From: a candidate division WWE3 bacterium RIFOXYB1_FULL_43_24
GTDB taxonomy: Bacteria > Patescibacteriota > WWE3 > UBA101185 > UBA10185
Reading direction: 5' to 3'
Length of the DNA: 51,990 bases
NCBI GenBank assembly: GCA_001773135.1
Contig: MEVX01000008.1
Coordinates: 91,992 to 143,981, forward strand
Made by a program: the position numbers and the translations under genes
Part shown: one piece after another, positions 5,240 to 16,187 of the stretch
How positions within the stretch are numbered: the first letter of the stretch is position 1
Layout: every line of letters begins with the position of its first letter
Notes under the pieces: generated by a model
What the model was told of the DNA's origin: nothing
Databases searched by the model: none
What the model saw: the letters and a program-made list of their open reading frames with translations, nothing else

Positions 5240-6748
5240 CTAATTTTGTGTGGGAGCTATTTTCCAGATCCTAGTAATAGCCCTATTTATTTTCTGATAA
5301 GAATAGATAAAATATCCCAGGATTTCCGAGTAGTATAAGTATCCTTGCCCCGCCTTAATTTTTGAGAGAACTTTCAAAGGTACAAGCACTATGTTCGGGA
5401 TTTGAAATTTCACATCGTAAAATTTTATCTTCATCAGCCAATCAATAATGCCTTTTGGTAAAAGAGAGATAAGTACGAACAGAAGCATAAACGCCGAAGT
5501 ATTTATTTGGGCGTTTTTGTTGTCGTACCAAGGTACAAGATTAAGTTTGCTCAAATCGTGTTGTCCTGTGTTTATAGCGGGAACATCCGCTTCAGAAATT
5601 GAACCGTGCTTAATTGCTGTTTGTATGATGTCTGTTCCGGGAAGATACATTAAACCCCAGAAATTAATAATTGTAGGACGGCACTCATTATATAAATTGA
5701 CGGCTTCTATCAAATGTTCTTTAGTTTCAGCCGGTAGGTTGAAGATGTGGTCGAAAGAAAATTGAAGGCTGTATTTCCTGCATAATTCTGAAACCTTTAA
5801 AATTTGTTCATTGGTTTCGTGACGGTTAAGAAAAGTTTTTCTATAATTTTCGTTTGCGGATTGAACGCCGAGCTTAAACCAAGTGCATCCGCCCTCTTTA
5901 AGAATTTTTACTGTTTCTTCGTTTACAAGTCTCGGGTGGAAGAAACAAGCGAAAGGAACATTTACCTTTTCTTTATACAAATCCATAAGTTTGCGGAGTC
6001 TTTCTATGTCTATTGCCAGTACATCGTCAGCAAACTCTACACGCGGATAGTGGTATTTTGCTAAATTCATTTCCAGCTCTCCGATTACGTTTTCAGGACT
6101 ACGGTGTCTGAATCTTTTTTGTCCGAGGTATAGTTTTTGGTAAACGTTGTTTGAGCAGTATGTACATGCGAAAGGACAACCGCGGCTTCCTACGGCTGTA
6201 TAGGCCATATTTCTTTTAATTGGGTCAAGCGGAGAGTTGTAAAAAAGATCTTTGTCGGGGTATGGCAGAGCGTCTAAATCGGTTTCTAAAGGCGCGGTAG
6301 GATTTTTAACTATCCCGCCGTCTTTTCTATACCATAATGACCTCGTTTTTGTTATATCTCCGGCTTCGTGATTTTGTGCAAATTCTATGATAGTTTTGTC
6401 GGCTTCCCCAAGAAGTATCCCGTCAATAGCTTTCTCTTCCATTACCACGTCGGGCACAGAGTTAACATGAACACCTCCGAACAAAATGAAAAGCTCTGGA
6501 TAATTTTCTTTGATTAGTTTTGCTTTGGCCAAAGACCACGGGAATTGAAAAGAGAATGGTGAAAAACATGCAAAGTCAGGTTTATATTTTTCAATTTTCT
6601 TTATGATAGCTTGGTTTTCTGCTTGTAGGTTGGATCCTAGTGGAAAGAACGCAAGTTCCACGGAGTGTCCTACGCTTTTCAGTGCAGCAGAGATGTACTC
6701 AACGCCTATATTTTCGTTTTCGTGTTGTACGAATAAAAACTTCAGCAC
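5240..6748 (-). CDS. B12-binding-domain radical SAM protein
   Basis: N-terminal Rossmann-like B12-binding region, then GSRGCPFACTYCSN (CxxxCxxC). GTG start. Confidence 0.75.
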   Translation of the reverse strand: MLKFLFVQHENENIGVEYISAALKSVGHSVELAFFPLGSNLQAENQAIIKKIEKYKPDFACFSPFSFQFPWSLAKAKLIKENYPELFILFGGVHVNSVPDVVMEEKAIDGILLGEADKTIIEFAQNHEAGDITKTRSLWYRKDGGIVKNPTAPLETDLDALPYPDKDLFYNSPLDPIKRNMAYTAVGSRGCPFACTYCSNNVYQKLYLGQKRFRHRSPENVIGELEMNLAKYHYPRVEFADDVLAIDIERLRKLMDLYKEKVNVPFACFFHPRLVNEETVKILKEGGCTWFKLGVQSANENYRKTFLNRHETNEQILKVSELCRKYSLQFSFDHIFNLPAETKEHLIEAVNLYNECRPTIINFWGLMYLPGTDIIQTAIKHGSISEADVPAINTGQHDLSKLNLVPWYDNKNAQINTSAFMLLFVLISLLPKGIIDWLMKIKFYDVKFQIPNIVLVPLKVLSKIKAGQGYLYYSEILGYFIYSYQKINRAITRIWKIAPTQN

Positions 6749-6818
6749 TCGAGCAATTATACATAATTTTGATCTATATATGTTGGTGGAGGGGCAATAA
6801 GGTTATGTGGTGGATTTT

Positions 6819-6841
6819 TTTCTGGTGACCCCACGGGGAAT
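6819..6841 (-). repeat. Orphan copy of the tRNA-Glu 3' end (T-loop remainder, T-stem, acceptor 3' strand, CCA and 4 nt of flank)
   Basis: TTTCTGGTGACCCCACGGGGAAT at 6819-6841 is identical to 6968-6990. Confidence 0.9.
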
Positions 6842-6843
6842 AA

Positions 6844-6887
6844 GCAAAGCTTCCATTAGAGCTATAGTTCGCTTTGCTCTCTATAGC
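6844..6887 (-). ncRNA. Possible pseudoknotted structured element inside the tRNA-Glu-associated insert
   Basis: Two interleaved perfect 7-bp complements: GCAAAGC (6844-6850) with GCTTTGC (6871-6877), and GCTATAG (6861-6867) with CTATAGC (6881-6887). Confidence 0.3.
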
Positions 6888-6971: not shown

Positions 6972-7046
6972 TGGTGACCCCACGGGGAATCGAACCCCGA
7001 TTACCGGGATGAAAACCCGGCGTCCTAACCGTTAGACGATGGGGCC
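6972..7046 (-). tRNA. tRNA-Glu (anticodon TTC)
   Basis: Reverse complement: GGCCCCA acceptor, GTCTAACGGTTAGGAC D-arm, CCGGG-TTTTCAT-CCCGG anticodon arm, CGGGGTTCGATTCCCCG T-arm, CCA. Confidence 0.9.
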
Positions 7047-7185
7047 AAGGTTTACAGGGCAAACATCCCCGCCACAAACACATGGCACAACGGTATATTA
7101 TCAACAAAACCCTTACTTTTGCAAGAAAACAGCGGGTAAGCTGCACCGGCTCCATGCCCGCAAAATAGTGGTAAAATGAGTCGAA

Positions 7186-8607
7186 ATGGCCATACTAACC
7201 ACTATTTATCTATACATGTACACCTTTTTTGCTGCGCTTTTACCCGGGGCAAGCTATAACGAGGGTATGTTGGGCCAGCCCCAAACATTTTTTCCAAGCC
7301 AGATTGTGCAGCAAACGGATAAGGCCATAAGCTCTCTTCTTTACAGAGGGTTGTTTAAATATGATATTTACGGGGCAACAGTACCAGATTTAGCTGAAAC
7401 GTGGCAAGTTTCGGACGACGGTCTTGTTTACACTATTAAGCTAAAAGACAACCAATACTGGACCAACGGTAAAAAGATAAATTCTGATGACTTAATATAC
7501 ACGTCCTTCAAGGTTACGGATCTCTCTGGAGTTGCGACAGATAAAGTTGATGATTTGACCGTAAGATACACTCTTCCTAACGAGTACTCCCCGTTCTTAA
7601 GTTTACTTACCGTAGGTATTATGCCTATGAACGCCGAAGAAAATAATACTCCTTTGTCTCCTGTAACGAGCGGTGACTTTAGGATAGCCCGGGTAGAAAA
7701 ATCAGGTAAATATATAAGACAGATAACTTTGGTGTCCCCAAATAATAAATACGATATTCAAAAAATAAGCTTCAGATATTATTCGAACGAAGATGAGATT
7801 GTGACTGCGGCTAAGTTGGGGGAAATCAATGGCTACCTCTTGTCTGAAAAGAAATCCCCCGAAAATTTTTATAACTATGAATATCCGGTTCAGGGAATTT
7901 ACTATGCTTTATTCTTTAATATTAGAAACGAAAAGCTTGCGGACGTTGATTTTAGGCAGAAGCTGGAAAAGGTAATACCTTTGGAAAGTTTTACAGCCGG
8001 AAAAGGTATTAGAGTTCAGGGACCGATTAGCCGAAGTATTTTTACGGATTTGGAGCTCGAATTTGACCGTTACGACGAGCTTTTTTCTGAGGACTTGGGC
8101 GACGCACGTCTGACAATAAGAGTTCCGGATATTGAAACTCATGTAATTTTGGCAAAACAAATCGCGTCAGTTTGGAGAGAGAAGTTAGATATAGAAGTGA
8201 AAGTAGAGCCTATCGCTTCCAACGATATCGTTCCGCGTATTATAGAACCACGCGACTTTGAGGTTTTATTGTTCGGGCAGGAGGTTGGGCGAGACCCGGA
8301 TAGATATGTTTTATGGCATTCTGCGCAGAAAAACCCCCCGGGGTTGAACTTTTCCGGGTTTGACCAGGTTAGAGCCGACAGGGCTTTAGAAGAAGGTAGA
8401 AAAGAGCTGGACAACGAGAAAAGGATTATTCACTATAATGAGTTTCAGAAGGTTATTGTAGAGCAAGTTCCCGCAGTCTTTTTGTACCACCCGTTTACCA
8501 ACTTTTACGTCTCCAAGTACATAGAGGGTGTGGGGGAGAAATATACCTTTACTTACGCGGACAGATTCCTGGACTTTGAGAACTGGAGGTATTTGAGGAC
8601 GAATTAG
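7186..8607 (+). CDS. Family-5 (peptide/nickel type) extracellular solute-binding protein
   Basis: N-terminal hydrophobic anchor. Overall resemblance to OppA/DppA-type SBPs (WQVSDDGLVYTIKLKDNQYWTNGKKINSDD). Confidence 0.55.
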   Translation: MAILTTIYLYMYTFFAALLPGASYNEGMLGQPQTFFPSQIVQQTDKAISSLLYRGLFKYDIYGATVPDLAETWQVSDDGLVYTIKLKDNQYWTNGKKINSDDLIYTSFKVTDLSGVATDKVDDLTVRYTLPNEYSPFLSLLTVGIMPMNAEENNTPLSPVTSGDFRIARVEKSGKYIRQITLVSPNNKYDIQKISFRYYSNEDEIVTAAKLGEINGYLLSEKKSPENFYNYEYPVQGIYYALFFNIRNEKLADVDFRQKLEKVIPLESFTAGKGIRVQGPISRSIFTDLELEFDRYDELFSEDLGDARLTIRVPDIETHVILAKQIASVWREKLDIEVKVEPIASNDIVPRIIEPRDFEVLLFGQEVGRDPDRYVLWHSAQKNPPGLNFSGFDQVRADRALEEGRKELDNEKRIIHYNEFQKVIVEQVPAVFLYHPFTNFYVSKYIEGVGEKYTFTYADRFLDFENWRYLRTN

Positions 8608-8659
8608 AATTTTTTGGATGTTTTCGCGGTGCTGATGTTATAATCTTCTTGACCGTTAT

Positions 8660-8737
8660 GGTGGCTGTAGCTCAGTTGGTTAGAGCGCTGCTCTGTGGAA
8701 GCGGAGGTCGTGGGTTCGAGCCCCATCAGCCACCCCA
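8660..8737 (+). tRNA. tRNA-His (anticodon GTG) with encoded G-1
   Basis: G(-1) then GTGGCTG acceptor, CTGCT-CTGTGGA-AGCGG anticodon arm, GTGGGTTCGAGCCCCAT T-arm, CAGCCAC, discriminator C, CCA. Confidence 0.9.
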
Positions 8738-8864
8738 AAAATTAAGGTTGATTTAGCAACATTATTTTAAGTACCCCTAATGATAAATTGAACCAGGTCT
8801 ACAAAAATATATTAATCTTTTAACTTGTACAACCCTTGAATGTGGCGCGGTTGCAGCCTATTCC

Positions 8865-8893
8865 TTTACATTTATTCTGTTATAGGTTATATT
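8865..8893 (+). promoter_or_regulatory. Putative sigma70-like promoter of the RiPP-like island
   Basis: TTTACA (8865-8870), 17-nt spacer, TATATT (8888-8893), about 45 nt upstream of the rSAM start. Confidence 0.35.
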
Positions 8894-8937
8894 GTCGTTG
8901 TTAATCTTGAAAACTAAATAAACCAACGGAGGTAAAG

Positions 8938-10239
8938 ATGTACACACGATTAAGTGCACCATTGGATGTGCAATGGGAGCTTACGCCTTGGTGCACATAT
9001 AACTGTGTGCACTGTTACAACTATTGGCGTAGGGACGAACGACCAATGCGTGTTCTTACAGAAGATCAGCTGGTAGTACGTAGAAAGACTGCCAAAGAGC
9101 TTCTTGAGAACAAGGTTTTTCATGTGACACTGACTGGAGGTGAGCCGCTTGGCGTAATTGAGCAGGTAATGCCTGAACTTCGCCAACTCGCATCAGCAGG
9201 TATACAAATGAGCATCAACACTAACCTAGCCCTGATGACCACGGAGATGGGTAAATTGTTGAAAGAGTTGGGTATTCGTTCAATTCTTACATCCTTGATG
9301 TCAGCAGACGAAATACTCAACGATGAGATCGCTCAACAAAGAGGTGCCTTTAGGCGGACTATAGAGGGTATCAAGGTAGCGGTATCAATGGGACTCCGAG
9401 TGTCGGTGAATATGGTTGTGTCTCAGAAAAACTTTGACACCATCTACGATACTGGAAAACTTGCATACTCACTTGGTGCCAAAGCATTCTGTGCAACCAA
9501 GGTGTCAAAACCCTCAAACTGCGAAGACTTCACAGGCTTTCCTCTTAGCAGAGAGCAGCTTGGGAGTATGTTCCATGAGCTTATCCGGATAAGGAAAGCA
9601 TTTGGAATTGAAGTCGCCTCACTGGAGCACTATCCTGCTTGTGTATTCCCAAATACCGAAACAAGAACAATGTTTGGTAATAGAAATTGTTCGGCCGCGA
9701 AAACAAGCTGTACGATAGGGTTTGATGGGAACATACGGCCATGCTCGCACGCTCCTATGTCCTACGGTAATGTAGCAGAACAAGGATTAAGCGTTGCCTG
9801 GATAGGTATGGACGCATGGCGAGATGATAGCCTTGTACCATCTGTATGTAAGCTTACGTGCGGTGAGTATCCTGGCAAGTGCGGTGGCGGTTGCAGAATT
9901 GAGTCTCTTAATGTTCACCAGGGTGTAGGTGGCAGCGACCCTTATAGCCTTGAGGCAGCGCCAGCAGCAAAGCGAGCAGTAGCAAAGCTCAAGCTCTTAG
10001 ATCCCGCCGTGATAGTACAACTACAACCAAAGGTACGATTTCGTAAAGAGAATTTTGGGTTCATAGCCTACAGAAGTTCAACCAACTGGGTAGCTATGGA
10101 TTCAACGCTTTATGGTATAGTCGTACCGTCCAAACCAGTATCGGTCACTGATGTGGCGACCGCATATCAATCTTCTGAAGATGATGCCCTGGAAACGCTG
10201 AGCATTTTGTCAGCAAAAGGCATTGTCCAAATAATCTGA
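8938..10239 (+). CDS. Radical SAM / SPASM-domain peptide maturase with a C-terminal PqqD-like (RRE-like) tail
   Basis: CTYNCVHC (CxxxCxxC) at residues 19-26. Auxiliary-cluster Cys motifs CSAAKTSC..RPC and CKLTCGEYPGKCGGGC. The ~90-aa tail (KVRFRKENFGFIAY...) resembles PqqD family. RBS GGAGG. Confidence 0.8.
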   Translation: MYTRLSAPLDVQWELTPWCTYNCVHCYNYWRRDERPMRVLTEDQLVVRRKTAKELLENKVFHVTLTGGEPLGVIEQVMPELRQLASAGIQMSINTNLALMTTEMGKLLKELGIRSILTSLMSADEILNDEIAQQRGAFRRTIEGIKVAVSMGLRVSVNMVVSQKNFDTIYDTGKLAYSLGAKAFCATKVSKPSNCEDFTGFPLSREQLGSMFHELIRIRKAFGIEVASLEHYPACVFPNTETRTMFGNRNCSAAKTSCTIGFDGNIRPCSHAPMSYGNVAEQGLSVAWIGMDAWRDDSLVPSVCKLTCGEYPGKCGGGCRIESLNVHQGVGGSDPYSLEAAPAAKRAVAKLKLLDPAVIVQLQPKVRFRKENFGFIAYRSSTNWVAMDSTLYGIVVPSKPVSVTDVATAYQSSEDDALETLSILSAKGIVQII

Positions 10240-10260
10240 AAGCGAAAGGAGGTGAGAGTA

Positions 10261-10410
10261 ATGGCCGTTGGTATTCTGAGGTTGCAAACCACGCGTGTCT
10301 GCGAAGACAACTGTGATGGCGAAGACATTGATGGCGTTCCGTGCGTTGATGTTGAAGACCCGCCTTGCTACGAAATGTGTCAAGACAGCGATGATGGTCC
10401 GAACGATTAA
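10261..10410 (+). CDS. 49-aa Cys/Asp-rich putative RiPP precursor peptide A (not in the ORF track)
   Basis: ATG lies 7 nt after AAGGAGGTGA and 21 nt after the rSAM stop. Hand translation: MAVGILRLQTTRVCEDNCDGEDIDGVPCVDVEDPPCYEMCQDSDDGPND (5 Cys, 14 Asp/Glu). A terminator follows. Confidence 0.7.
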   Translation: MAVGILRLQTTRVCEDNCDGEDIDGVPCVDVEDPPCYEMCQDSDDGPND

Positions 10411-10465
10411 CCGCCTCGCCCGCGCCTACTCCTAACCACAGTTTGGGTTGCGCAACCTAACCTGT

Positions 10466-10516
10466 CCCTCTGATAGTTTGTTTACAAAACTAGCTGTCAG
10501 AGGGATACTTTTTTTA
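10466..10516 (+). terminator. Rho-independent terminator after peptide A
   Basis: CCCTCTGA ... TCAGAGGG stem with inner TAGTTT/AAACTA pairing, then a T-run. Confidence 0.6.
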
Positions 10517-10517
10517 T

Positions 10518-11150
10518 ATGATATTTAAGATACAGACATTTGAAGACCCTATTTTAGAAAAACTGTATAGCCAAGCATTAGAAGAGTTAAAAGAATTTTT
10601 CCAATTTAGATGGGAAAAAAACACTCCTAAGCTAATAGTTATTGAAGATAGAGATACTATAAACGCTGTATATGGGAAACAAACAGAGAGCTGGATGGTT
10701 GCATGGGCTGAAGATACAAGGAACATCTTTATACTTAGCAGAGAAAATTACGAAAAATATAGTTCGCACAAGTATTCAGAAGATGAATTTTACAAACTAA
10801 TAAAACACGAACTCTCCCATATGTTTTACAAATTGATTACTTTTACAGATAAACCAAGATGGTTGAATGAGGGAATAAGTACATACATATCAGGTCAATT
10901 AGATAACACCAAACCAATAGAGGAATTTAAGGTGTTTCTGAACTACTTTGATAAAACAGATGCTGAACTGTACAAAGAATCGGGGTATCTTGTCAAATTA
11001 TTGTTAGATAAATTCGGTAAAGATAAGCTATCTAAATTCACTAAATCTTTGAAGGGTGTCAAAGATCCAGAAACAACTGCAAAAGTATTTCAGGAAGCTT
11101 TTGGCTTAAATCTATCATACGAAAGTATAAACTACCTGCTTACAAAATAA
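10518..11150 (+). CDS. HExxH zinc metallopeptidase (peptidase MA / gluzincin-like), paralog 1
   Basis: HELSHMFY ... WLNEGISTYISGQ (HExxH plus a downstream EG). Confidence 0.6.
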   Translation: MIFKIQTFEDPILEKLYSQALEELKEFFQFRWEKNTPKLIVIEDRDTINAVYGKQTESWMVAWAEDTRNIFILSRENYEKYSSHKYSEDEFYKLIKHELSHMFYKLITFTDKPRWLNEGISTYISGQLDNTKPIEEFKVFLNYFDKTDAELYKESGYLVKLLLDKFGKDKLSKFTKSLKGVKDPETTAKVFQEAFGLNLSYESINYLLTK

Positions 11151-11374
11151 CACTTATTCAGTTGCATACTTGAATTACCCTTTGAAACATTACTAGAGTA
11201 TCTAGCAACTGGTTCAAATTAGCCTCCACTACCGACCCCAAAATTGGTGGCTGTAATCACGCCTTTTTCTACATATTCCCTAACGGTTAATCGAGCCAAA
11301 GTGCCCCCCCCCATATATACGAAGCATTTAAAAGTAGTATTAAATAATCACGCTTTTAACGATGTTGAGTTATA

Positions 11375-12007
11375 ATGACTTTACTTATGAGTAAAATTTT
11401 TAGAATAAAAATAAACGAACAAAAAGAATTAGAATCTGTATACGCTCAATCACTAGACAAATTAAATAACTTTTTTGATATTAGATGGGAACAGAACAAA
11501 CCAAAAGTTTATATAGTAAGTGACAGAGAAACTGCTGAATCTTTGAGGGGTAAACAAACTCCAGATTGGATTGTCGGCTGGAACGGGGACGGGGGGGCAT
11601 TTGTTTTGGATAAAGATATATTTTTGAACACAAAAAATACTAATCGAGACAATGACGATTACAAAATGCTAATAATGCACGAGTTAGCGCATTTGTACTT
11701 CAAAATCGTAACAGGTGGTAAAACACAACCTAATTGGTTGTGGGAAGGAACATCAATACTTGCATCAGGCCAGGCCGAAAAGTGGAATAAACCAGCAGAG
11801 TTTAGAAGCTTTCTGGACAACAAAGACGTTTATTCAGAGGCAGGACATGCTCTACTACTATTGACGCGACAGTTTGGCAAGGAAAAGTTCATACAAATGC
11901 TCAAAAACTACAAAACTTACGATGGAGATTTTTCTGGTCTATTTAAAAATACTTACGATATGGAACTAACATATGCTACGTTTGAAGGTTTAATAAAACA
12001 TCAGTAA
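11375..12007 (+). CDS. HExxH zinc metallopeptidase (peptidase MA / gluzincin-like), paralog 2
   Basis: HELAHLYF ... WLWEGTSILASGQ. Alignable by eye with 10518-11150 over the full length. The true start may be the second Met (11387, MSKIFRIK). Confidence 0.6.
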   Translation: MTLLMSKIFRIKINEQKELESVYAQSLDKLNNFFDIRWEQNKPKVYIVSDRETAESLRGKQTPDWIVGWNGDGGAFVLDKDIFLNTKNTNRDNDDYKMLIMHELAHLYFKIVTGGKTQPNWLWEGTSILASGQAEKWNKPAEFRSFLDNKDVYSEAGHALLLLTRQFGKEKFIQMLKNYKTYDGDFSGLFKNTYDMELTYATFEGLIKHQ

Positions 12008-12072
12008 TATACGGGGTATAGTGATTAGTAAATAATCAGCATACCCCTGTTTCTACCGTCACTGACTTTTTA

Positions 12073-12198
12073 CTAAGAAAACTGAGGACAGTCTCCAGGA
12101 GGTTGGCAATCACAATCGCAATCGCTGGTTGCGTCTGAATCGTGAGAGCAATTATCAGACCCAGTTACGTGTATGCCCAAATCTTCAAGATTAACCAT
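12073..12198 (-). CDS. 41-aa Cys/Asp-rich putative RiPP precursor peptide B (not in the ORF track)
   Basis: On the minus strand, GAAAGGAGAATTGAC precedes the ATG. Hand translation: MVNLEDLGIHVTGSDNCSHDSDATSDCDCDCQPPGDCPQFS. The leader motif LGIHV..S is shared with peptide C. Confidence 0.65.
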   Translation of the reverse strand: MVNLEDLGIHVTGSDNCSHDSDATSDCDCDCQPPGDCPQFS

Positions 12199-12325
12199 GT
12201 CAATTCTCCTTTCGTAGAATGCAGATTTATTCACAGTATTATACTACAAAAATTGAGATTACTAATAAAATATGCTATAACTACGCAATAATCCAAAATA
12301 TCTTGTAAAAAAAGGAGAGATAGCT

Positions 12326-13678
12326 ATGGCAGACTTGACTTATCAGGGGCTGTTATTGGACAAGGCAGGTCACACTAAGTTAAACCTTTCAAATGGCGAA
12401 GCTGTGATCTATAGTCCTTACGGCTCCGGCAAAGCGTTTGTTCTATCAGGTGTTGCATTAAAGGTGTACAAGCTTCTTGAAAGCGGGTTAACTGTTGAGG
12501 AAATAATCAATACAGCGCAATCGCCGGAATGGGAAGAAACCGTGCAGGCAGTGATTGCGTACTTCACAGATCGGGGACTTTTTGCAGACAAGAGAAAAAC
12601 GAAAACTTTCTCTGCAGCCAAAAAGCCGAAGTCAATTGCACTTTGGATCCATGTTACGGATACCTGTAATCTGCGTTGCGATTATTGCTACGTTCACAAG
12701 GGTAAACGGCGCTTATCCAAAGAAGCCTGTGATGTTATTGTCAGCGCATTAAAGGCGGATACGGAAACCTTTCAGATAAAGGAGGTTGAGCTGAAGTTTG
12801 CAGGAGGCGAACCGCTCGTTGATATAGAGATTGTTTCCTATTTCATGGACCAAGCAAGAGCGGCGTTGCTACCACTTGGTGTAAAAATCCATTTGGCGAT
12901 AATCACCAACGGTACCTTAGTGACTGATGAAAAAGCGAAGTTTCTCAAGAACGAAGCGTTCTCGGTCATGGTATCCCTGGACGGACTTGGAGATTTCAAC
13001 AACGCCAGGAAATATGCAGATGGACGAACTAGTGTGCATCAGGTGCTGGAAGGTATTGAATGCCTGCTTAACGCTGGTGTTAGGCCTACAATACTCACAA
13101 CGGTATCGGATACGAATGTTGAGGGTTTGTGGGATCTAATGATCTATGTGAGAGAGAAGGGTCTAACGCTAAGCCTAAGCCCATCCAGAGACTACGAGCA
13201 AGAATTGGGTTTGAAGATGAATGTAGAGCATATTTCCAATGAAATGGTGGTGTTTCTACACAAAGTATGTCTTTTACCCGATAGCGACCTGCCGCGACTG
13301 AGTTTCAATGGAATTCAATTTACCGGCGGTAGAACTCATATCTGTGGGGGTGGCTCAAATTACTTTGCAGTGGATCCCGATGCAGGCGTCTGCTTTTGTC
13401 AGATGACTGTAGATAAGCCAATGGGTTTGGTCACAGACAAAGACAGCATATTGAGTTTCGCCACTAGTCAAGATACGATCCTGGAAGGAGGTGAGTGCTT
13501 AACCTGTATTTGGAAGAATGTCTGTTGTGGAGGATGTGCAGTTTTAGCGATGAACGCAGGTACTTTTGGGAAACCATCAGTAATGTGCGATTTAATGAAA
13601 CGCATCCTACCGTCAATCCTTCTATATGAAGGCCGAAAGATCCGCAGATTGAAAGAGAGGAAAACATGCCTACCTTGA
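12326..13678 (+). CDS. Radical SAM / SPASM-domain peptide maturase with an N-terminal PqqD-like (RRE-like) domain
   Basis: CNLRCDYC (CxxxCxxC). C-terminal Cys clusters CGGGSNYF..CFC and CLTCIWKNVCCGGC. The ~100-aa N-terminal extension (VIYSPYGSGKAFVLSGVALKVYKLLESGLTVEEII) resembles PqqD family. RBS AAGGAGAG. Confidence 0.8.
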   Translation: MADLTYQGLLLDKAGHTKLNLSNGEAVIYSPYGSGKAFVLSGVALKVYKLLESGLTVEEIINTAQSPEWEETVQAVIAYFTDRGLFADKRKTKTFSAAKKPKSIALWIHVTDTCNLRCDYCYVHKGKRRLSKEACDVIVSALKADTETFQIKEVELKFAGGEPLVDIEIVSYFMDQARAALLPLGVKIHLAIITNGTLVTDEKAKFLKNEAFSVMVSLDGLGDFNNARKYADGRTSVHQVLEGIECLLNAGVRPTILTTVSDTNVEGLWDLMIYVREKGLTLSLSPSRDYEQELGLKMNVEHISNEMVVFLHKVCLLPDSDLPRLSFNGIQFTGGRTHICGGGSNYFAVDPDAGVCFCQMTVDKPMGLVTDKDSILSFATSQDTILEGGECLTCIWKNVCCGGCAVLAMNAGTFGKPSVMCDLMKRILPSILLYEGRKIRRLKERKTCLP

Positions 13679-13854
13679 GCGCTCTTGGTATTCATGTAGC
13701 AGATTCTCAAAGCCGAGCTGATTGCGACTGCGAGACAGACTGCGCCTCACAATGTAGCCAACAGTGTGACCGAGACTGTGACTGCGAATGTGGAGGCGAC
13801 TGCTACGATTGTGATTGTGAATGCCAGTGCCAATGCTCTGATTGCAGGAACTAA
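13666..13854 (+). CDS. 62-aa putative RiPP precursor peptide C with 15 Cys
   Basis: ATG lies 5 nt after GAGAGG and overlaps the rSAM-2 stop by 13 nt. Sequence: MPTLSALGIHVADSQSRADCDCETDCASQCSQQCDRDCDCECGGDCYDCDCECQCQCSDCRN. Confidence 0.75.
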   Translation: MPTLSALGIHVADSQSRADCDCETDCASQCSQQCDRDCDCECGGDCYDCDCECQCQCSDCRN

Positions 13855-13874
13855 AACGAGCAATGGCAATCAAC

Positions 13875-13927
13875 AAAGACCTGTTTAAAGGTGAACTTAC
13901 TCCTTATAGACAGGTCTTTAATTTTTG
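13875..13927 (+). terminator. Hairpin terminator after peptide C
   Basis: AAAGACCTG ... CAGGTCTTT with inner AAGG/CCTT pairing, then AATTTTTG. Confidence 0.5.
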
Positions 13928-14056
13928 AGACTTGCGAGGTACAAAGTACCTCAGGAAACAACACCAAAGTACCTATTAACTGGTTCGGCCCTCTCCCCAT
14001 ACTATAGTAAAATTACCCCGTTAAAATCAAACAACAAACTCAAATAGGAGAAACCC

Positions 14057-14416
14057 ATGAGAAACAGAAACGAAAAGGAAATTTCACTCTTTTTAGAGGG
14101 TTTTTACGACGGGATACCCCATCACCAGGTAGGCGATAATGAAAGGGAATTTGCTATAATCGCCGACTTGATTAATGATGGAAAGTCATTCGAAAAGGTT
14201 TTAAATGACCTCGGTGACGACGTAGAGAGTGCCATGAGGCACGACGATCCTGATGTAATGAGCAGGGCTGTTTTGTGGAACGAAGTGAAAAAACAGAAAC
14301 TGCTGATAATGGGGATCGCAAATAGTTTCGATCGCCGCGTCTTACAAGGAAAAAAACATCTCCACTCGAACACTGATGCTAAAAAACTTTTCGATACCCT
14401 AATAAAATACAAGTAA
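14057..14416 (+). CDS. Hypothetical protein
   Basis: 119-aa ORF with RBS AGGAGAAAC. No recognised motif. Confidence 0.4.
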   Translation: MRNRNEKEISLFLEGFYDGIPHHQVGDNEREFAIIADLINDGKSFEKVLNDLGDDVESAMRHDDPDVMSRAVLWNEVKKQKLLIMGIANSFDRRVLQGKKHLHSNTDAKKLFDTLIKYK

Positions 14417-14577
14417 AGAAAAGTCACTACCACCCCCAACCCAATCAACCGGAACGAGGGTCTTTTTTTATTCTGATTTATTCTTAACAGGTACTAACTT
14501 CTGAGATACTAAGCCCCTGTACAGCCTAATTCAGACTAGTAGTGACAAAGACACCTTTGATTACAGCACTGAGCACC

Positions 14578-14934
14578 TTACCGTAAACTAACCGATTTAA
14601 CTTTTTTCCTAATCTCTTTGTAATTCGGAATAGTCTTTCCTACCTCGGCCCAAAACTTTTTAGAATGGTTGAACTCTATCAGGTGGCAGAGTTCGTGAAC
14701 AACTACGTAGTCTCTTTGATCCTTTGGCAGAAGTGCGACCCTGTAGTTAAAATTCAAGTTTCTCGCTTTCGAACAACTTCCCCACTTTGATTTTTGGTTT
14801 CTTATGGCAACTTTACGATACTTCACACCATATAAATGTGCAAAAAATTCAAGAACCTCTAATATTATCTTTCTGGCAGTTTCTTTGTTTTCAACATAGT
14901 GTCTTTTAGAACGCATATTATAATAGTTTACCAA
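14578..14934 (-). CDS. Short YgjP/DUF45-like (M48-related) metal-dependent hydrolase
   Basis: KWGSCS ... YVVVHELCHLIEFNHSKKFW is the DUF45 signature. At 118 aa it looks N-terminally short for the family. TTG start, with an alternative ATG at 14916. Confidence 0.55.
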   Translation of the reverse strand: MVNYYNMRSKRHYVENKETARKIILEVLEFFAHLYGVKYRKVAIRNQKSKWGSCSKARNLNFNYRVALLPKDQRDYVVVHELCHLIEFNHSKKFWAEVGKTIPNYKEIRKKVKSVSLR

Positions 14935-15078
14935 GAAGTGTTTGGAATAGCCTTAAAATAAATGTTTGGTGTTTAAAAGCTGAACTTTGTGCCGACTAGC
15001 CGTTTACCCTTTAATGTAGTACAATGCTAGAGCGGAAGGAGGTATAAATAGGTTTAACCCCCCAATCTATAAAAAAAT

Positions 15079-15279
15079 ATGAACGGAACAATTAAAACCA
15101 AGACAGATAAAGGATTTGGATTCATTTCTCGTGATGGAGAAACTAAGGATCTTTTCTTTCACTCTAACAATCTAACAGGCGTTACATTCGACGAACTACA
15201 GGTAGGAGCAGCAGTTACATTTGATGTAGTCAACAGCGACAAAGGTCCCAGAGCAGAAAACGTACAGCTTGCAGAGTAG
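15079..15279 (+). CDS. cspA: Cold-shock domain protein
   Basis: GTIKTKTDKGFGFISRDGETKDLFFH matches the RNP1/RNP2-like CSD motifs. 66 aa. Confidence 0.85.
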   Translation: MNGTIKTKTDKGFGFISRDGETKDLFFHSNNLTGVTFDELQVGAAVTFDVVNSDKGPRAENVQLAE

Positions 15280-15314
15280 AGTAGCAGAATAAATCAAATA
15301 CAATTGAATATATT

Positions 15315-15365
15315 ACGGCATCTTCAAGTTAGGAATTCCTAAAAGTAAGGTGCCGTTTTAGTTTT
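15315..15365 (+). terminator. Terminator after cspA
   Basis: ACGGCATCTT ... AAGGTGCCGT stem followed by TTTAGTTTT. Confidence 0.5.
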
Positions 15366-15446
15366 CCTCTACCATATAAATTCTGGTGAATTACAAAATG
15401 AGTACTATACTCAAATTACGTCACATCTTTGTAATTTATTACTGGG

Positions 15447-16187
15447 GTGTCTGCAAAAATGTCTTACATTAAGGTTCTTGTTACAGTAGCGTTGATAATT
15501 ACATTGGCTGGTATAGCCGGTTACGCGGGATACATTTATCTCGCCATTAAAACTTTTTCCGATGAAGTAGTCAACATAGTAGAGAATGTTGAAAAACGTG
15601 TTGAGGTAGAGTCGGTATCCGAATCTACCGCAATGTATAAAAATCCTGAAGAACCAAAACACGGATACCAGGCAGCCCCGGTAGTAAATGTTAAAAATGA
15701 AAGTTACTTTGTAAGTGGTAACGACCGCGAGACGCTGTGTAATCAGATAAACGTAGAAGAAAGACGGGTTGAAGAAGATAGAGTTCAAATAGGTTATATA
15801 CTTTCCAGTATGCGTTATGAGTATTATGCCGTTTTGACTTTAAAAGGTTACACTATCGGCGATTTTACAGTAACAACCGATTCAGTAATTACTGTACCTC
15901 AATGGACATCCAGCGGGGGAGCTTCGGATGACACTAAAAACGATTGGAGACGATTTAAGGACGCAGTAGTGGCACATGAAAATGAACACCAAAGCATTTT
16001 GGTAGAAAACGCGACCGAATTTGTAAACACATTAAATAACCTCGGATATTATCCCACGGAAACCGCTTTGAATGTTGCCGTCGAAGGTTTGTATGATGCG
16101 GCATATAAACAATTGAGGGAGGAACAGGAAAATTTTGATGAAGAATATGAAAATGAACCGTTCCAGCATTTCTGTGAAAACCATTAG
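15447..16187 (+). CDS. Secreted/membrane-anchored putative zinc protease (DUF922-like, HExxH)
   Basis: N-terminal TM helix and an AHENEHQ motif in the C-terminal half. Confidence 0.4.
   Translation: MSAKMSYIKVLVTVALIITLAGIAGYAGYIYLAIKTFSDEVVNIVENVEKRVEVESVSESTAMYKNPEEPKHGYQAAPVVNVKNESYFVSGNDRETLCNQINVEERRVEEDRVQIGYILSSMRYEYYAVLTLKGYTIGDFTVTTDSVITVPQWTSSGGASDDTKNDWRRFKDAVVAHENEHQSILVENATEFVNTLNNLGYYPTETALNVAVEGLYDAAYKQLREEQENFDEEYENEPFQHFCENH

What the first reader, a model, noticed from the sequence alone, without database searches (positions are those of the whole stretch)
8865..13927. RiPP-like island: two radical-SAM/SPASM maturases, three Cys/Asp-rich precursor peptides, two HExxH peptidases
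The island starts directly 3' of tRNA-His. Gene order: rSAM-1 (CTYNCVHC, SPASM-type Cys clusters, PqqD/RRE-like C-terminal tail); a 49-aa peptide 21 nt later with its own GGAGG RBS (5 Cys, 14 Asp/Glu) and a terminator; two paralogous HExxH..EG peptidases; a 41-aa peptide on the opposite strand; then rSAM-2 (CNLRCDYC, SPASM Cys clusters, RRE-like domain at the N-terminus instead). The rSAM-2 stop overlaps the start of a 62-aa peptide with 15 Cys. Established knowledge: rSAM/SPASM enzymes make Cys-to-Asp/Glu thioethers (QhpD on QhpC; PapB on the CxxxD motifs of freyrasin; SCIFF/ranthipeptide maturases). Cores made almost only of Cys plus Asp/Glu are therefore what such a substrate would look like. 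The spacing here (DCDCEC, CQCQC, i.e. C-x-C) is much tighter than the described CxxxD ranthipeptide motif, and the Cys density is extreme. Two maturases with swapped RRE positions plus a multi-precursor layout is an architecture I do not recognise as a described class. I saw no exporter or immunity gene in the island.
Basis: partly seen in the sequence, partly recalled or inferred. Interest (0 to 1): 0.9.

Follow-up and report, generated by a model that had tools for sequence, protein, structure and literature searches.

The report
Two Cys-rich radical-SAM peptide cassettes
A candidate-phylum (WWE3) bacterium carries two adjacent but independent three-part gene cassettes (radical-SAM enzyme, tiny cysteine-rich acidic peptide, small zinc peptidase). 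They belong to widespread families of modified peptides that no curated family model tested here covers and that I found in no paper of the searched library; their chemistry and role are untested.

Summary
The interpretation needs two corrections. (1) This is not one island with two cooperating maturases. It is two independent cassettes side by side. Relatives carry rSAM-1/pepA/MA1 alone or rSAM-2/pepC alone, at other genomic sites. (2) The conserved core feature is not C-x-C spacing. In rSAM-2-linked precursors the residue before Cys is D/E/Q in 110 of 112 cases; in rSAM-1-linked precursors the bias is on the residue after Cys. rSAM-2 has the architecture of CteB (RRE, rSAM, SPASM; TM 0.72). 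rSAM-1 belongs to a separate lineage with a C-terminal RRE-shaped winged-helix domain that occurs almost only in this family. Small HExxH peptidases of five families sit next to the cassette in about 60 of 97 loci. No transporter recurs. No curated NCBIfam or Pfam model covers the maturases or the peptides, and I found no paper describing them. Best reading: leader-guided radical-SAM thioether cross-linking of Cys-rich cores (sacti- or ranthipeptide-like), followed by cytoplasmic leader removal. The chemistry and function are inferred, not shown. Verdict: a new variant of a known kind, of moderately high interest.

The parts
8661..8737 (+). tRNA-His(GTG), the left flank of cassette 1
   Evidence: ARAGORN and Rfam, 66 bits. 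Homologous cassettes lie downstream of other tRNAs in other genomes.
8865..8893 (+). Promoter-like site (TTTACA-17-TATATT) upstream of rSAM-1
   Evidence: Consensus scan, 10 of 12 matches. The number of such sites in the region is not above shuffle expectation, so this is only suggestive.
8938..10239 (+). rSAM-1: radical SAM/SPASM maturase with a C-terminal winged-helix (RRE-shaped) domain, about residues 355-433
   Evidence: Pfam Radical_SAM 72 bits and SPASM 25.5 bits. No NCBIfam model reaches its cut-off; the best is NirJ2 at 91 bits against 500. AF2 pLDDT is 89, with strands and then three helices at residues 360-432. The nearest folds are SkfB, SuiB and PqqE. More than 120 full-length homologues. 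The C-terminal domain occurs almost only at the C-terminus of this family.
10261..10410 (+). pepA: 49-aa precursor of cassette 1 (leader MAVGILRLQ..., core with 5 Cys and 14 D/E)
   Evidence: AGGAGG RBS. Orthologues lie in the same position in L013 (94% aa identity) and L014 (84%), differing by both synonymous and non-synonymous codon changes.
10463..10517 (+). Intrinsic terminator after pepA
   Evidence: A 16-bp-plus hairpin followed by UUUUUUU. MFE -38 kcal/mol, z = -5.3, 0 of 200 shuffles.
10518..11150 (+). MA1: small HExxH(+E) gluzincin-type peptidase, candidate leader peptidase of cassette 1
   Evidence: Pfam Peptidase_MA_2 37.8 bits, above the 32.4 cut-off. It follows the precursor in L013, L014, L015, L055 and others, and the family is present in 30 of 97 loci.
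11375..12007 (+). MA2: paralogous HExxH(+E) peptidase that belongs to cassette 2
   Evidence: 33% identical to MA1. Peptidase_MA_2 scores only 20 bits, below the cut-off. A clearly similar protein that keeps the HExxH...WEG motifs (read by eye, not scored) sits directly upstream of the rSAM-2 homologue in L096. An MA-type peptidase lies downstream of the precursor in L004.
12073..12198 (-). pepB: 41-aa second precursor of cassette 2, transcribed divergently
   Evidence: Its leader MVNLEDLGIHVTGS matches the pepC leader MPTLSALGIHVADS. It has its own AGGAG RBS and a TGTAGTATAAT -10-like element. A positional homologue in L002 keeps both signals but carries an in-frame TAA.
12326..13678 (+). rSAM-2: CteB-type maturase (N-terminal RRE, rSAM, SPASM)
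   Evidence: Pfam Radical_SAM 68.5 bits. Best NCBIfam hit is PapB at 119 bits against 340. The profile hits CteB 5wgg at E = 9e-33. The AF2 model matches 5wgg_A over 454 columns with TM 0.72. The seven SPASM Cys are invariant.
13666..13854 (+). pepC: 62-aa precursor of cassette 2 (leader ...LSALGIHV..., core with 15 Cys, each preceded by D/E/Q)
   Evidence: Homologous peptides follow or overlap the maturase gene in L001-L004, L093, L096, L098, L099, L102-L113. The [D/E/Q]-Cys rule holds in 110 of 112 cases.
13875..13927 (+). Intrinsic terminator after pepC, the right end of cassette 2
   Evidence: Hairpin AAAGACCUGU...ACAGGUCUUU followed by AAUUUUU. MFE -35 kcal/mol, z = -5.4. DNA homology to L002 ends at 13926.

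Best explanation
The region holds two independent RiPP cassettes, and each can be found on its own elsewhere.

Cassette 1 runs from about 8840 to 11150: rSAM-1, pepA, a terminator, then MA1. Cassette 2 runs from about 11375 to 13927: MA2, divergent pepB, rSAM-2, pepC, then a terminator.

Proposed mechanism, step by step:
- The short hydrophobic leader (GILRL in pepA; LGIHV in pepB and pepC) docks on the maturase's winged-helix RRE-type domain. That domain is C-terminal in rSAM-1 and N-terminal in rSAM-2. This step is inferred.
- The radical-SAM/SPASM enzyme then abstracts a hydrogen atom from a carbon of an acceptor residue and joins it to a Cys sulfur held at an auxiliary Fe-S cluster. It repeats this along the core to give many thioether rings, with a loss of 2 Da per ring. 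This step is inferred by homology to CteB and PapB.
- For rSAM-2 substrates, the acceptors are most likely the Asp/Glu/Gln residues that almost always precede a Cys. That would be ranthionine-type chemistry on the side-chain beta or gamma carbon. This step is inferred from the motif.
- The cytoplasmic HExxH peptidase removes the leader. This step is inferred from gene linkage.

Shown here: gene content, conservation, domain architecture, motif statistics and the independence of the cassettes. Not shown: any chemistry, leader cleavage, export, or biological role.

My confidence that these are RiPP cassettes is about 0.85. My confidence that the modification is Cys thioether cross-linking is about 0.55.
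For: - Maturase domains and motifs.
- rSAM-2 resembles CteB in sequence (E = 9e-33) and in predicted fold, including the N-terminal domain (TM 0.72 over 454 columns).
- The rSAM-1 model is confident (pLDDT 89). It has a strand-strand-strand then helix-helix-helix C-terminal domain. The profile of that domain hits winged-helix proteins. The domain is confined to this family's C-terminus in 1.84 billion representatives (118 hits).
- A Cys-rich ORF (at least 3 Cys, at least 6% Cys) follows the rSAM-1 homologue in 56 of 73 loci; a few of these look spurious, leaving about 50 clear precursors. Homologous precursors lie next to every close rSAM-2 homologue with enough flanking sequence.
- The leader is conserved while the core is hypervariable.
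- [D/E/Q] precedes Cys in 110 of 112 cases, against 63% expected; 0 of 5000 shuffles reach this. The rule was re-found in new loci: 37 of 38 in close relatives, and 53 of 63 next to maturases only 24-30% identical.
- In the rSAM-1 family, D/E/Q/N follows Cys in 67% of cases against 46% expected; 0 of 3000 shuffles reach this.
- HExxH peptidases of five families are adjacent in about 60 of 97 loci.
- The cassettes occur separately in relatives.
- PapB forms Cys-Asp thioethers with 0 to 6 intervening residues in vitro, so tight spacing is chemically feasible (PMC9413430).
Against: - No chemistry was tested.
- Neither maturase reaches the cut-off of any curated sacti- or ranthipeptide model. rSAM-1 scores best against heme-pathway models (NirJ2, AhbD), although far below their cut-offs.
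- The RRE assignment for rSAM-1 has no sequence support. There is no PqqD Pfam hit, and hhalign against the rSAM-2 N-terminal domain gives a probability of only 2%.
- With 15 Cys in about 44 core residues, full cross-linking would be unprecedentedly dense. Some or all Cys may instead stay free, form disulfides or bind metal.
- pepA itself does not show a simple motif.
- No exporter is linked, which is atypical for secreted antimicrobial RiPPs.
Confidence: 0.55

Rival explanations
1. The thioether links are sactionine-type (Cys S to an acceptor alpha-carbon) and form a hairpin or ladder, as in StsA and BlaA. They are not links to D/E/Q side-chain carbons. Alternating Cys would line one face of a beta-strand as donors.
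For: StsA has a CxCxC donor array and three nested sactionines (PMC10288494). In rSAM-1-linked cores the residues between Cys are very varied (D, N, S, E, Y, H, G, A, V), which suits side-chain-independent alpha-carbon chemistry. The nearest folds to rSAM-1 include the sactisynthase SkfB, and relatives score 65-68 bits against the StsB model.
Against: There is no GxGxG-type acceptor array. The StsB model scores 63-68 bits against a cut-off of 625. The 98% [D/E/Q]-Cys rule in rSAM-2 substrates points to side-chain-specific recognition. rSAM-2 is closest to CteB and PapB, which make non-alpha thioethers.
Confidence: 0.2
2. The mature products are metallothionein-like or redox peptides whose Cys stay as free thiolates, binding metal or an Fe-S cluster. 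The rSAM makes a different modification (for example epimerisation, hydroxylation or C-C links), or only a few cross-links. The product acts inside the cell.
For: Cys density is extreme, with C-x-C and C-x-x-C spacing and an acidic context. No transporter or immunity gene recurs in 97 loci. MA1 and MA2 show no N-terminal signal sequence (read). Fully cross-linking 15-17 Cys would be unprecedented.
Against: The peptides match no Pfam or NCBIfam model at E <= 0.1 (pepC has only sub-threshold NCBIfam noise), so they hit no metallothionein model. The conserved leader, fused RRE-type domain and linked peptidase fit enzymatic core maturation. The closest characterised relatives of rSAM-2 all consume Cys thiols.
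Confidence: 0.17
3. This is the first reader's picture: a single integrated pathway in which both maturases and both peptidases act together on three precursors.
For: The genes are physically adjacent and mostly on the same strand. The two core types have similar composition.
Against: Close relatives carry only one half. L013 and L014 (83-90% rSAM-1 identity) lack rSAM-2 within 4 kb or more. L001 and L002 lack rSAM-1 and MA1. The leaders differ between pepA and pepB/pepC. Each half has its own terminator. The motif polarity differs between the two families. The maturases share only 28% identity over the rSAM core.
Confidence: 0.06
4. The rSAMs are cofactor, heme or sulfatase maturases, and the short ORFs are chance reading frames.
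For: The best NCBIfam hits of rSAM-1 are NirJ2 and AhbD. rSAM-2 also hits anSME.
Against: All these scores are 4- to 6-fold below the cut-offs. No heme d1, sulfatase or Qhp genes were found among the larger ORFs of window 1-24000 that were scanned. The short ORFs are conserved in position, leader and Cys pattern across dozens of phylogenetically distant loci.
Confidence: 0.02

Closest known systems
SCIFF/ranthipeptide systems: CteB-thermocellin and PapB-freyrasin
   Same: rSAM-2 has the same RRE, rSAM, SPASM architecture and fold as CteB. Its best curated model is PapB. The substrates are Cys-rich with Asp/Glu next to Cys. Thioethers with tight Cys-Asp spacing are feasible for PapB in vitro. 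As in SCIFF loci, no dedicated exporter is present; the statement about SCIFF loci is from my own knowledge.
   Different: Scores are far below the family cut-offs: 119 against 340 for PapB and 92 against 425 for SCIFF. The repeat unit is [D/E/Q]-Cys with 0-3 spacer residues, not CX3D. Gln is a frequent partner. There are up to 17 Cys per core. A linked gluzincin-type peptidase is present. The hosts are Patescibacteria (CPR).
StsB/StsA and BlaB/BlaA sactipeptides (MftC-related)
   Same: The core has a CxCxC donor array and is modified by an rSAM/SPASM enzyme with an RRE (PMC10288494). The rSAM-1 lineage scores similarly low against the MftC, PqqE and StsB models.
   Different: StsA has a matching GxGxG acceptor array and a discrete RRE protein (StsC). 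Here there is no Gly array and the putative RRE is fused C-terminally. The StsB model is far below its cut-off.
Bioinformatically defined rSAM plus Cys-rich peptide families (FibroRumin TIGR04135, CcpM/CLI_3235, CefB Cys-every-fifth, CXXX-repeat)
   Same: The genetic logic is the same: an rSAM/SPASM enzyme next to a short Cys-rich peptide. One rSAM-1-linked peptide gives a weak FibroRumin hit (E = 0.012, 15.6 bits against a 45-bit cut-off).
   Different: No member reaches any of these models' cut-offs. The leaders, repeat unit and host range all differ. Those families are themselves uncharacterised.
QhpD/QhpC (quinohemoprotein amine dehydrogenase gamma-subunit maturation)
   Same: An rSAM/SPASM enzyme makes Cys-to-Asp/Glu thioethers. 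The TIGR03906 alignment covers the N-terminal region of rSAM-2.
   Different: The score is 82 bits against a 453-bit cut-off. No Qhp genes are nearby. The substrates here are free-standing, leader-bearing peptides.
Metallothioneins
   Same: Cys content is very high, with C-x-C and C-x-x-C spacing.
   Different: A conserved leader, an obligately linked rSAM and peptidase, no match to any Pfam or NCBIfam model at E <= 0.1 (pepC has only sub-threshold NCBIfam noise), and a strictly acidic or amide residue before each Cys.

Membership tests
Radical SAM superfamily (PF04055) | CX3CX2C cluster motif and a TIM-barrel core scoring above the Pfam gathering threshold | tested here: met
   rSAM-1 has C19-x3-C23-x2-C26 and scores 72.3 bits. 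rSAM-2 has C114-x3-C118-x2-C121 and scores 68.5 bits. The cut-off is 29.5.
SPASM subfamily | C-terminal 7-Cys motif for two auxiliary Fe-S clusters | tested here: met
   rSAM-1 scores 25.5 bits on PF13186 (cut-off 21.5). Its invariant Cys are C235, C251, C269, C304, C308, C315 and C319. rSAM-2 has no Pfam hit, but C340, C358, C391xxC394x5C400x3C404 and C421 are invariant and its fold matches CteB. The window rSAM-1 has Ser where most relatives have the Cys of 'DPYC'.
RiPP (leader-dependent peptide maturation) | Short precursor gene adjacent to the maturase, with a conserved leader and a variable core | tested here: met
   Leader motifs are LGIHV (rSAM-2) and G[IFY]V[SA]L or FFVNVY (rSAM-1). 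The cores are hypervariable but always Cys-rich.
RiPP (leader-dependent peptide maturation) | RiPP recognition element (PqqD-like winged helix: three strands then three helices) in or next to the maturase | tested here: inconclusive
   rSAM-2: predicted strands 17-40 and helices 42-82, and the full-length match to CteB includes its N-terminal RRE. Pfam PqqD is only E = 0.075. rSAM-1: the predicted topology fits and the profile hits winged-helix proteins. However, there is no PqqD hit and no significant profile match to the rSAM-2 domain.
RiPP (leader-dependent peptide maturation) | Demonstrated post-translational modification and leader removal | not testable with these tools
   This requires co-expression and mass spectrometry.
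Ranthipeptide maturases (PapB NF047865; SCIFF ScfB TIGR03974) | Score above the curated equivalog cut-off | tested here: not met
   rSAM-2 scores 119.2 against 340 (PapB) and 92.4 against 425 (SCIFF). rSAM-1 scores 43.6 against 340.
Ranthipeptides | Cys S linked to a non-alpha carbon of the acceptor (Asp/Glu/Asn/Thr) | not testable with these tools
   There is only the indirect motif: D/E/Q precedes 98% of Cys in rSAM-2 substrates.
Sactipeptides of the StsB type (NF045574) | Maturase above cut-off, and a CxCxC donor array paired with a GxGxG acceptor array | tested here: not met
   Scores are 62.8 bits (rSAM-2) and 65-68 bits (rSAM-1 relatives) against 625. No Gly acceptor array is present in the cores.
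Anaerobic sulfatase maturase; heme/NirJ/AhbD; PqqE; MftC; QhpD | Score above the curated cut-off, plus the cognate pathway genes nearby | tested here: not met
   All scores are 4- to 6-fold below the cut-offs. The neighbours are HisRS, a B12-rSAM, an SBP_bac_5 protein, DUF922, a DEAD helicase and BipA.
Peptidase_MA_2 (PF13485), gluzincins | HExxH plus a downstream Glu, and a score above the gathering threshold | tested here: met
   MA1 scores 37.8 bits against 32.4 and carries HELSH...NEG. MA2 scores only 20 bits, below the cut-off, but is 33% identical to MA1 and keeps HELAH...WEG.
Anti-phage defence (pVip and others, PADLOC) | Full-length match to a defence protein model | tested here: not met
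   Only the generic rSAM core matches pVip (model positions 2-151 of 257). The peptidases give no hit.

The most novel reading that the evidence does not exclude
These cassettes define a new RiPP class. A radical-SAM enzyme would stitch every [D/E/Q]-Cys unit (up to 17 per peptide) into a continuous ladder of very small thioether rings between adjacent or near-adjacent residues. The rSAM-1 family would do so in mirrored register (Cys-[D/N/E]). The result would be a rigid, poly-anionic scaffold that is not exported by any dedicated system. It would serve an intracellular or cell-surface role, such as metal handling, redox buffering or host interaction, in genome-reduced CPR and DPANN symbionts and some gut Clostridia.
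Probability: 0.25. Interest if true: 0.85.

Novelty: new variant of a known kind. Interest (0 to 1): 0.62.

Why it matters
Candidate Phyla Radiation bacteria are usually reported to have few or no biosynthetic gene clusters. In one survey, Patescibacteria MAGs had none detected (PMC11613949).

Here a compact three-gene peptide-maturation cassette recurs in about 100 species-level genomes, mostly Patescibacteria, plus DPANN archaea and gut Clostridia. Standard annotation largely misses it, because the precursor genes are not called or are called in the wrong frame.

The near-absolute [D/E/Q]-Cys rule gives a precise and cheaply testable hypothesis about substrate recognition and ring topology for CteB- and PapB-like enzymes.

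The two co-resident, apparently orthogonal systems offer a natural pair for studying leader/RRE specificity with the RRE at either end of the enzyme.

If the products prove to be densely cross-linked or metal-binding, they would be new scaffolds. They might also give a clue to how ultra-small symbionts interact with hosts.

Tried and rejected
- Protein-database search with pepC found nothing: no candidate shares three 5-mers. The precursors are essentially absent from called-protein sets, so family size had to be estimated from DNA loci.
- Pfam PqqD scan of 14 C-terminal domains gave no hits. A PDB profile search gave only generic winged-helix hits. hhalign between the two putative RRE domains was not significant. 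Sequence-level proof of an RRE in rSAM-1 therefore failed.
- A PDB profile search with the rSAM-2 N-terminal domain alone gave nothing significant.
- Seven literature searches found no description of these cassettes. The library lacks many subscription papers, so prior description cannot be excluded.
- The PADLOC defence-system scan gave only generic rSAM-core similarity to viperins. The defence reading is rejected.
- An Rfam scan of 7000-16000 found only tRNAs and no riboswitch.
- The generic promoter/terminator scanner gave counts no higher than shuffles and missed both long-loop terminators. Direct folding was used instead.
- The heme, sulfatase and cofactor maturase readings were considered and rejected on scores and gene context.
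- A link between the SBP_bac_5 gene upstream (7186-8607) and the cassette was considered. It was rejected because blastn against L013 and L014 found no DNA homology to the SBP gene.

Full report
**What is there.** The window comes from a candidate division WWE3 bacterium (Patescibacteria/CPR). The nearest database protein to rSAM-2 is 99% identical and is named accordingly.

- tRNA-His at 8661-8737
- rSAM-1 at 8938-10239
- pepA at 10261-10410
- MA1 at 10518-11150
- MA2 at 11375-12007
- pepB at 12073-12198 on the minus strand
- rSAM-2 at 12326-13678
- pepC at 13666-13854

Both enzymes pass the Pfam radical-SAM threshold. Both carry a full set of SPASM cysteines. MA1 passes Peptidase_MA_2. MA2 is its 33%-identical paralogue. 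Strong hairpin plus U-tract terminators follow pepA and pepC (z about -5.3). pepB has its own AGGAG ribosome-binding site and an extended -10-like element. No riboswitch or other known RNA lies in the region.

**The short ORFs are genes.**
- rSAM-2 has about 16 close homologues (35-99% identity). In every locus with enough flanking DNA, a short ORF follows or overlaps the maturase gene. It has the leader ...L(S/A)xLGIHV... and a Cys-rich acidic core.
- rSAM-1 belongs to a much larger family. It has more than 120 full-length homologues and 107 confirmed hits in species-representative genomes.
- In 56 of 73 rSAM-1 loci with downstream sequence, a Cys-rich ORF begins within about 500 nt of the maturase stop, mostly within about 100 nt. 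A few of these are clearly spurious, leaving about 50 clear precursors with a short hydrophobic leader motif (GIVSL, GYVSLL, LGFVSM, FFVNVY).
- pepA orthologues in L013 and L014 differ by both synonymous and non-synonymous codon changes. The window's five Cys are all kept, and L014 has one extra.
- pepB is the least secure of the three. Its leader matches pepC and its expression signals are intact. However, its only positional homologue (L002, RAAC2 genome) carries an in-frame TAA, and L001 lacks it altogether.

**Two cassettes, not one island.**
- DNA and protein comparisons show that L013 and L014 (83-90% rSAM-1 identity) share only window 8840-11095, which covers rSAM-1, pepA and MA1.
- L001 and L002 share only 12268-13926, which covers rSAM-2 and pepC. 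In all four cases the flanks are unrelated.
- L096 has a gene closely resembling MA2 directly upstream of its rSAM-2 homologue and precursor, which assigns MA2 to cassette 2.
- The two maturases share only 28% identity over the rSAM core.

The window therefore shows two separate systems that happen to be adjacent.

**Architecture of the maturases.**
- The rSAM-2 profile hits CteB (PDB 5wgg) at E = 9e-33. Its AF2 model (pLDDT 84) has three strands and then three helices at residues 17-82. The model superposes on CteB over 454 columns with TM 0.72, which includes the CteB N-terminal RRE.
- rSAM-1 (pLDDT 89) resembles SkfB, SuiB and PqqE in its core. It has an extra C-terminal domain, with strands at 360-387 and helices at 389-426.
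- A profile of that C-terminal domain hits only generic winged-helix proteins in the PDB. It matches no PqqD model and is not significantly similar to the rSAM-2 N-terminal domain.
- In 1.84 billion representative proteins that domain has 118 matches. Nearly all sit at the C-terminus of proteins of about 430-460 aa, or in fragments.
- The 'swapped RRE' idea is therefore supported structurally for rSAM-2. For rSAM-1 it is plausible but unproven.
- No curated NCBIfam model comes near its cut-off. rSAM-2 scores 119 against 340 for PapB, and rSAM-1 scores 91 against 500 for NirJ2. More distant family members behave the same way.

**What is conserved in the cores.**
- Cys-to-Cys spacing varies. One intervening residue occurs in 42-44% of cases, two in 21-24% and three in 15-17%. 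One close orthologue uses C-x-x-C almost throughout (L001). C-x-C is therefore not the rule.
- In rSAM-2-linked precursors the residue before Cys is Asp, Glu or Gln in 110 of 112 cases. Composition-preserving shuffles give 63% (sd 3.6), and 0 of 5000 reach the observed value. The position after Cys shows no enrichment.
- The rule held in loci fetched afterwards: 37 of 38 cases in close relatives. It also held in 53 of 63 cases (counting Asn) in precursors next to maturases only 24-30% identical.
- rSAM-1-linked precursors show the opposite polarity. D/E/Q/N follows Cys in 67% of cases against 46% expected (0 of 3000 shuffles), with no bias before Cys.
- These sequences are related to one another, so the shuffles overstate independence. 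Even so, the contrast between the two positions within the same peptides is internal and robust.

**Partners and context.**
- A census of ORFs within 3.5 kb of the maturase in 97 loci found the MA-type peptidase in 30.
- Four further small protein families are present in 12, 7, 6 and 6 loci. Each carries an HExxH motif and none matches Pfam.
- No transporter family recurs in 4 or more loci.
- MA1 and MA2 have no evident signal sequence (read).
- In the window the flanks are housekeeping genes.

The conserved unit is therefore a maturase, one or more precursors and a small cytoplasmic zinc peptidase.

**Mechanism (inferred).**
- By homology to CteB and PapB, the most likely chemistry is leader-guided, repeated thioether formation between a Cys sulfur and a carbon of a nearby residue.
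- The [D/E/Q]-Cys rule suggests that those residues are the acceptors for rSAM-2.
- PapB cross-links Cys and Asp separated by 0 to 6 residues in vitro, so small rings are feasible (PMC9413430).
- A sactionine hairpin like that of StsA, which has a CxCxC donor array, is the main chemical alternative (PMC10288494).
- A metal-binding product with free thiols cannot be excluded, given the Cys density and the lack of an exporter.

**Comparison and novelty.**
- The kind is well known: a Cys-rich peptide matured by an rSAM/SPASM enzyme.
- These two families are not covered by any curated model.
- They were not found in the searchable literature.
- Their precursors are largely invisible to gene callers.
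- I rate this a new variant of a known kind, with a real chance of new cross-link topology.

Noticed in passing
window 8661-8937; L001, L004, L007, L014, L038, L057, L061, L079, L080, L082, L085, L098: The cassettes often sit just downstream of a tRNA gene of varying identity (His, Leu, Gly, Glu, Ala, Ser, Gln, Thr) on the same strand. In 16 of 117 loci a tRNA ends within 1 kb upstream, against about 4% expected from the tRNA density of these loci. Some of the 16 are duplicate contigs.
   Followed up: partly
L013 3495-4805 (-): A large serine recombinase (Resolvase, Recombinase and Zn-ribbon domains) lies directly upstream of the rSAM-1/pepA/MA1 cassette in the 90%-identical WWE3 relative. Homologues lie near the cassette in three Clostridia loci (L066, L070, L084). 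Together with the non-syntenic flanks, this hints that the cassette is mobile.
   Followed up: partly
L002 about 6747-6850 (-): The pepB-type second precursor in the complete RAAC2 WWE3 genome keeps its promoter-like element and RBS. It has an in-frame TAA after 18 codons, so it is probably a decaying copy.
   Followed up: yes
L096 7272-7514; L099 1517-1738; window 13666-13854: Public gene calls miss or mis-frame these precursors. In L096 the called gene is an Ala/Ser/Thr-rich reading frame over the same DNA. In L099 the precursor region lies under a 297-aa call in another frame. pepC has no homologue in the 5.8-billion-protein database.
   Followed up: yes
window 14578-14934 (-) and 15447-16187 (+): Two more small HExxH proteins lie just right of the island: a YgjP-like protein (HELCH) and a DUF922 protein (HENEH). 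That makes four HExxH proteins within 6 kb. Neither recurs next to homologous cassettes.
   Followed up: partly
window 5240-6748 (-) and 7186-8607 (+): A B12-binding radical SAM enzyme and a family-5 solute-binding protein (peptide/nickel type) lie left of tRNA-His. blastn against relatives' cassettes (L013, L014) found no DNA homology to either gene.
   Followed up: partly
L006 6276-6925: A distant rSAM-2-like maturase (26% identity; best model PapB at 167 bits) is preceded by three tandem precursors that end in (D/N)C(D/N)C(D)CNTIVSF. This is a multi-precursor layout of the same theme.
   Followed up: partly
window rSAM-1 residue 337 (about 9946-9948): The WWE3 rSAM-1 (and P0123) has Ser where most family members have the Cys of a 'DPYC' motif after the SPASM cluster motif. 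One potential cluster ligand therefore differs in this lineage.
   Followed up: no
L001 8646-9467; L002 5845-6696 (-); L003 5352-6281; L098 2816-3637; L093 7635-8249: Some rSAM-2 cassettes carry an uncharacterised protein with no Pfam match next to the precursor, instead of an MA peptidase. It is either a 273-aa protein (4 loci) or a 204-aa protein (4 loci).
   Followed up: partly
window 1-51990: There are ten tRNA genes in 52 kb, scattered singly or in pairs.
   Followed up: no
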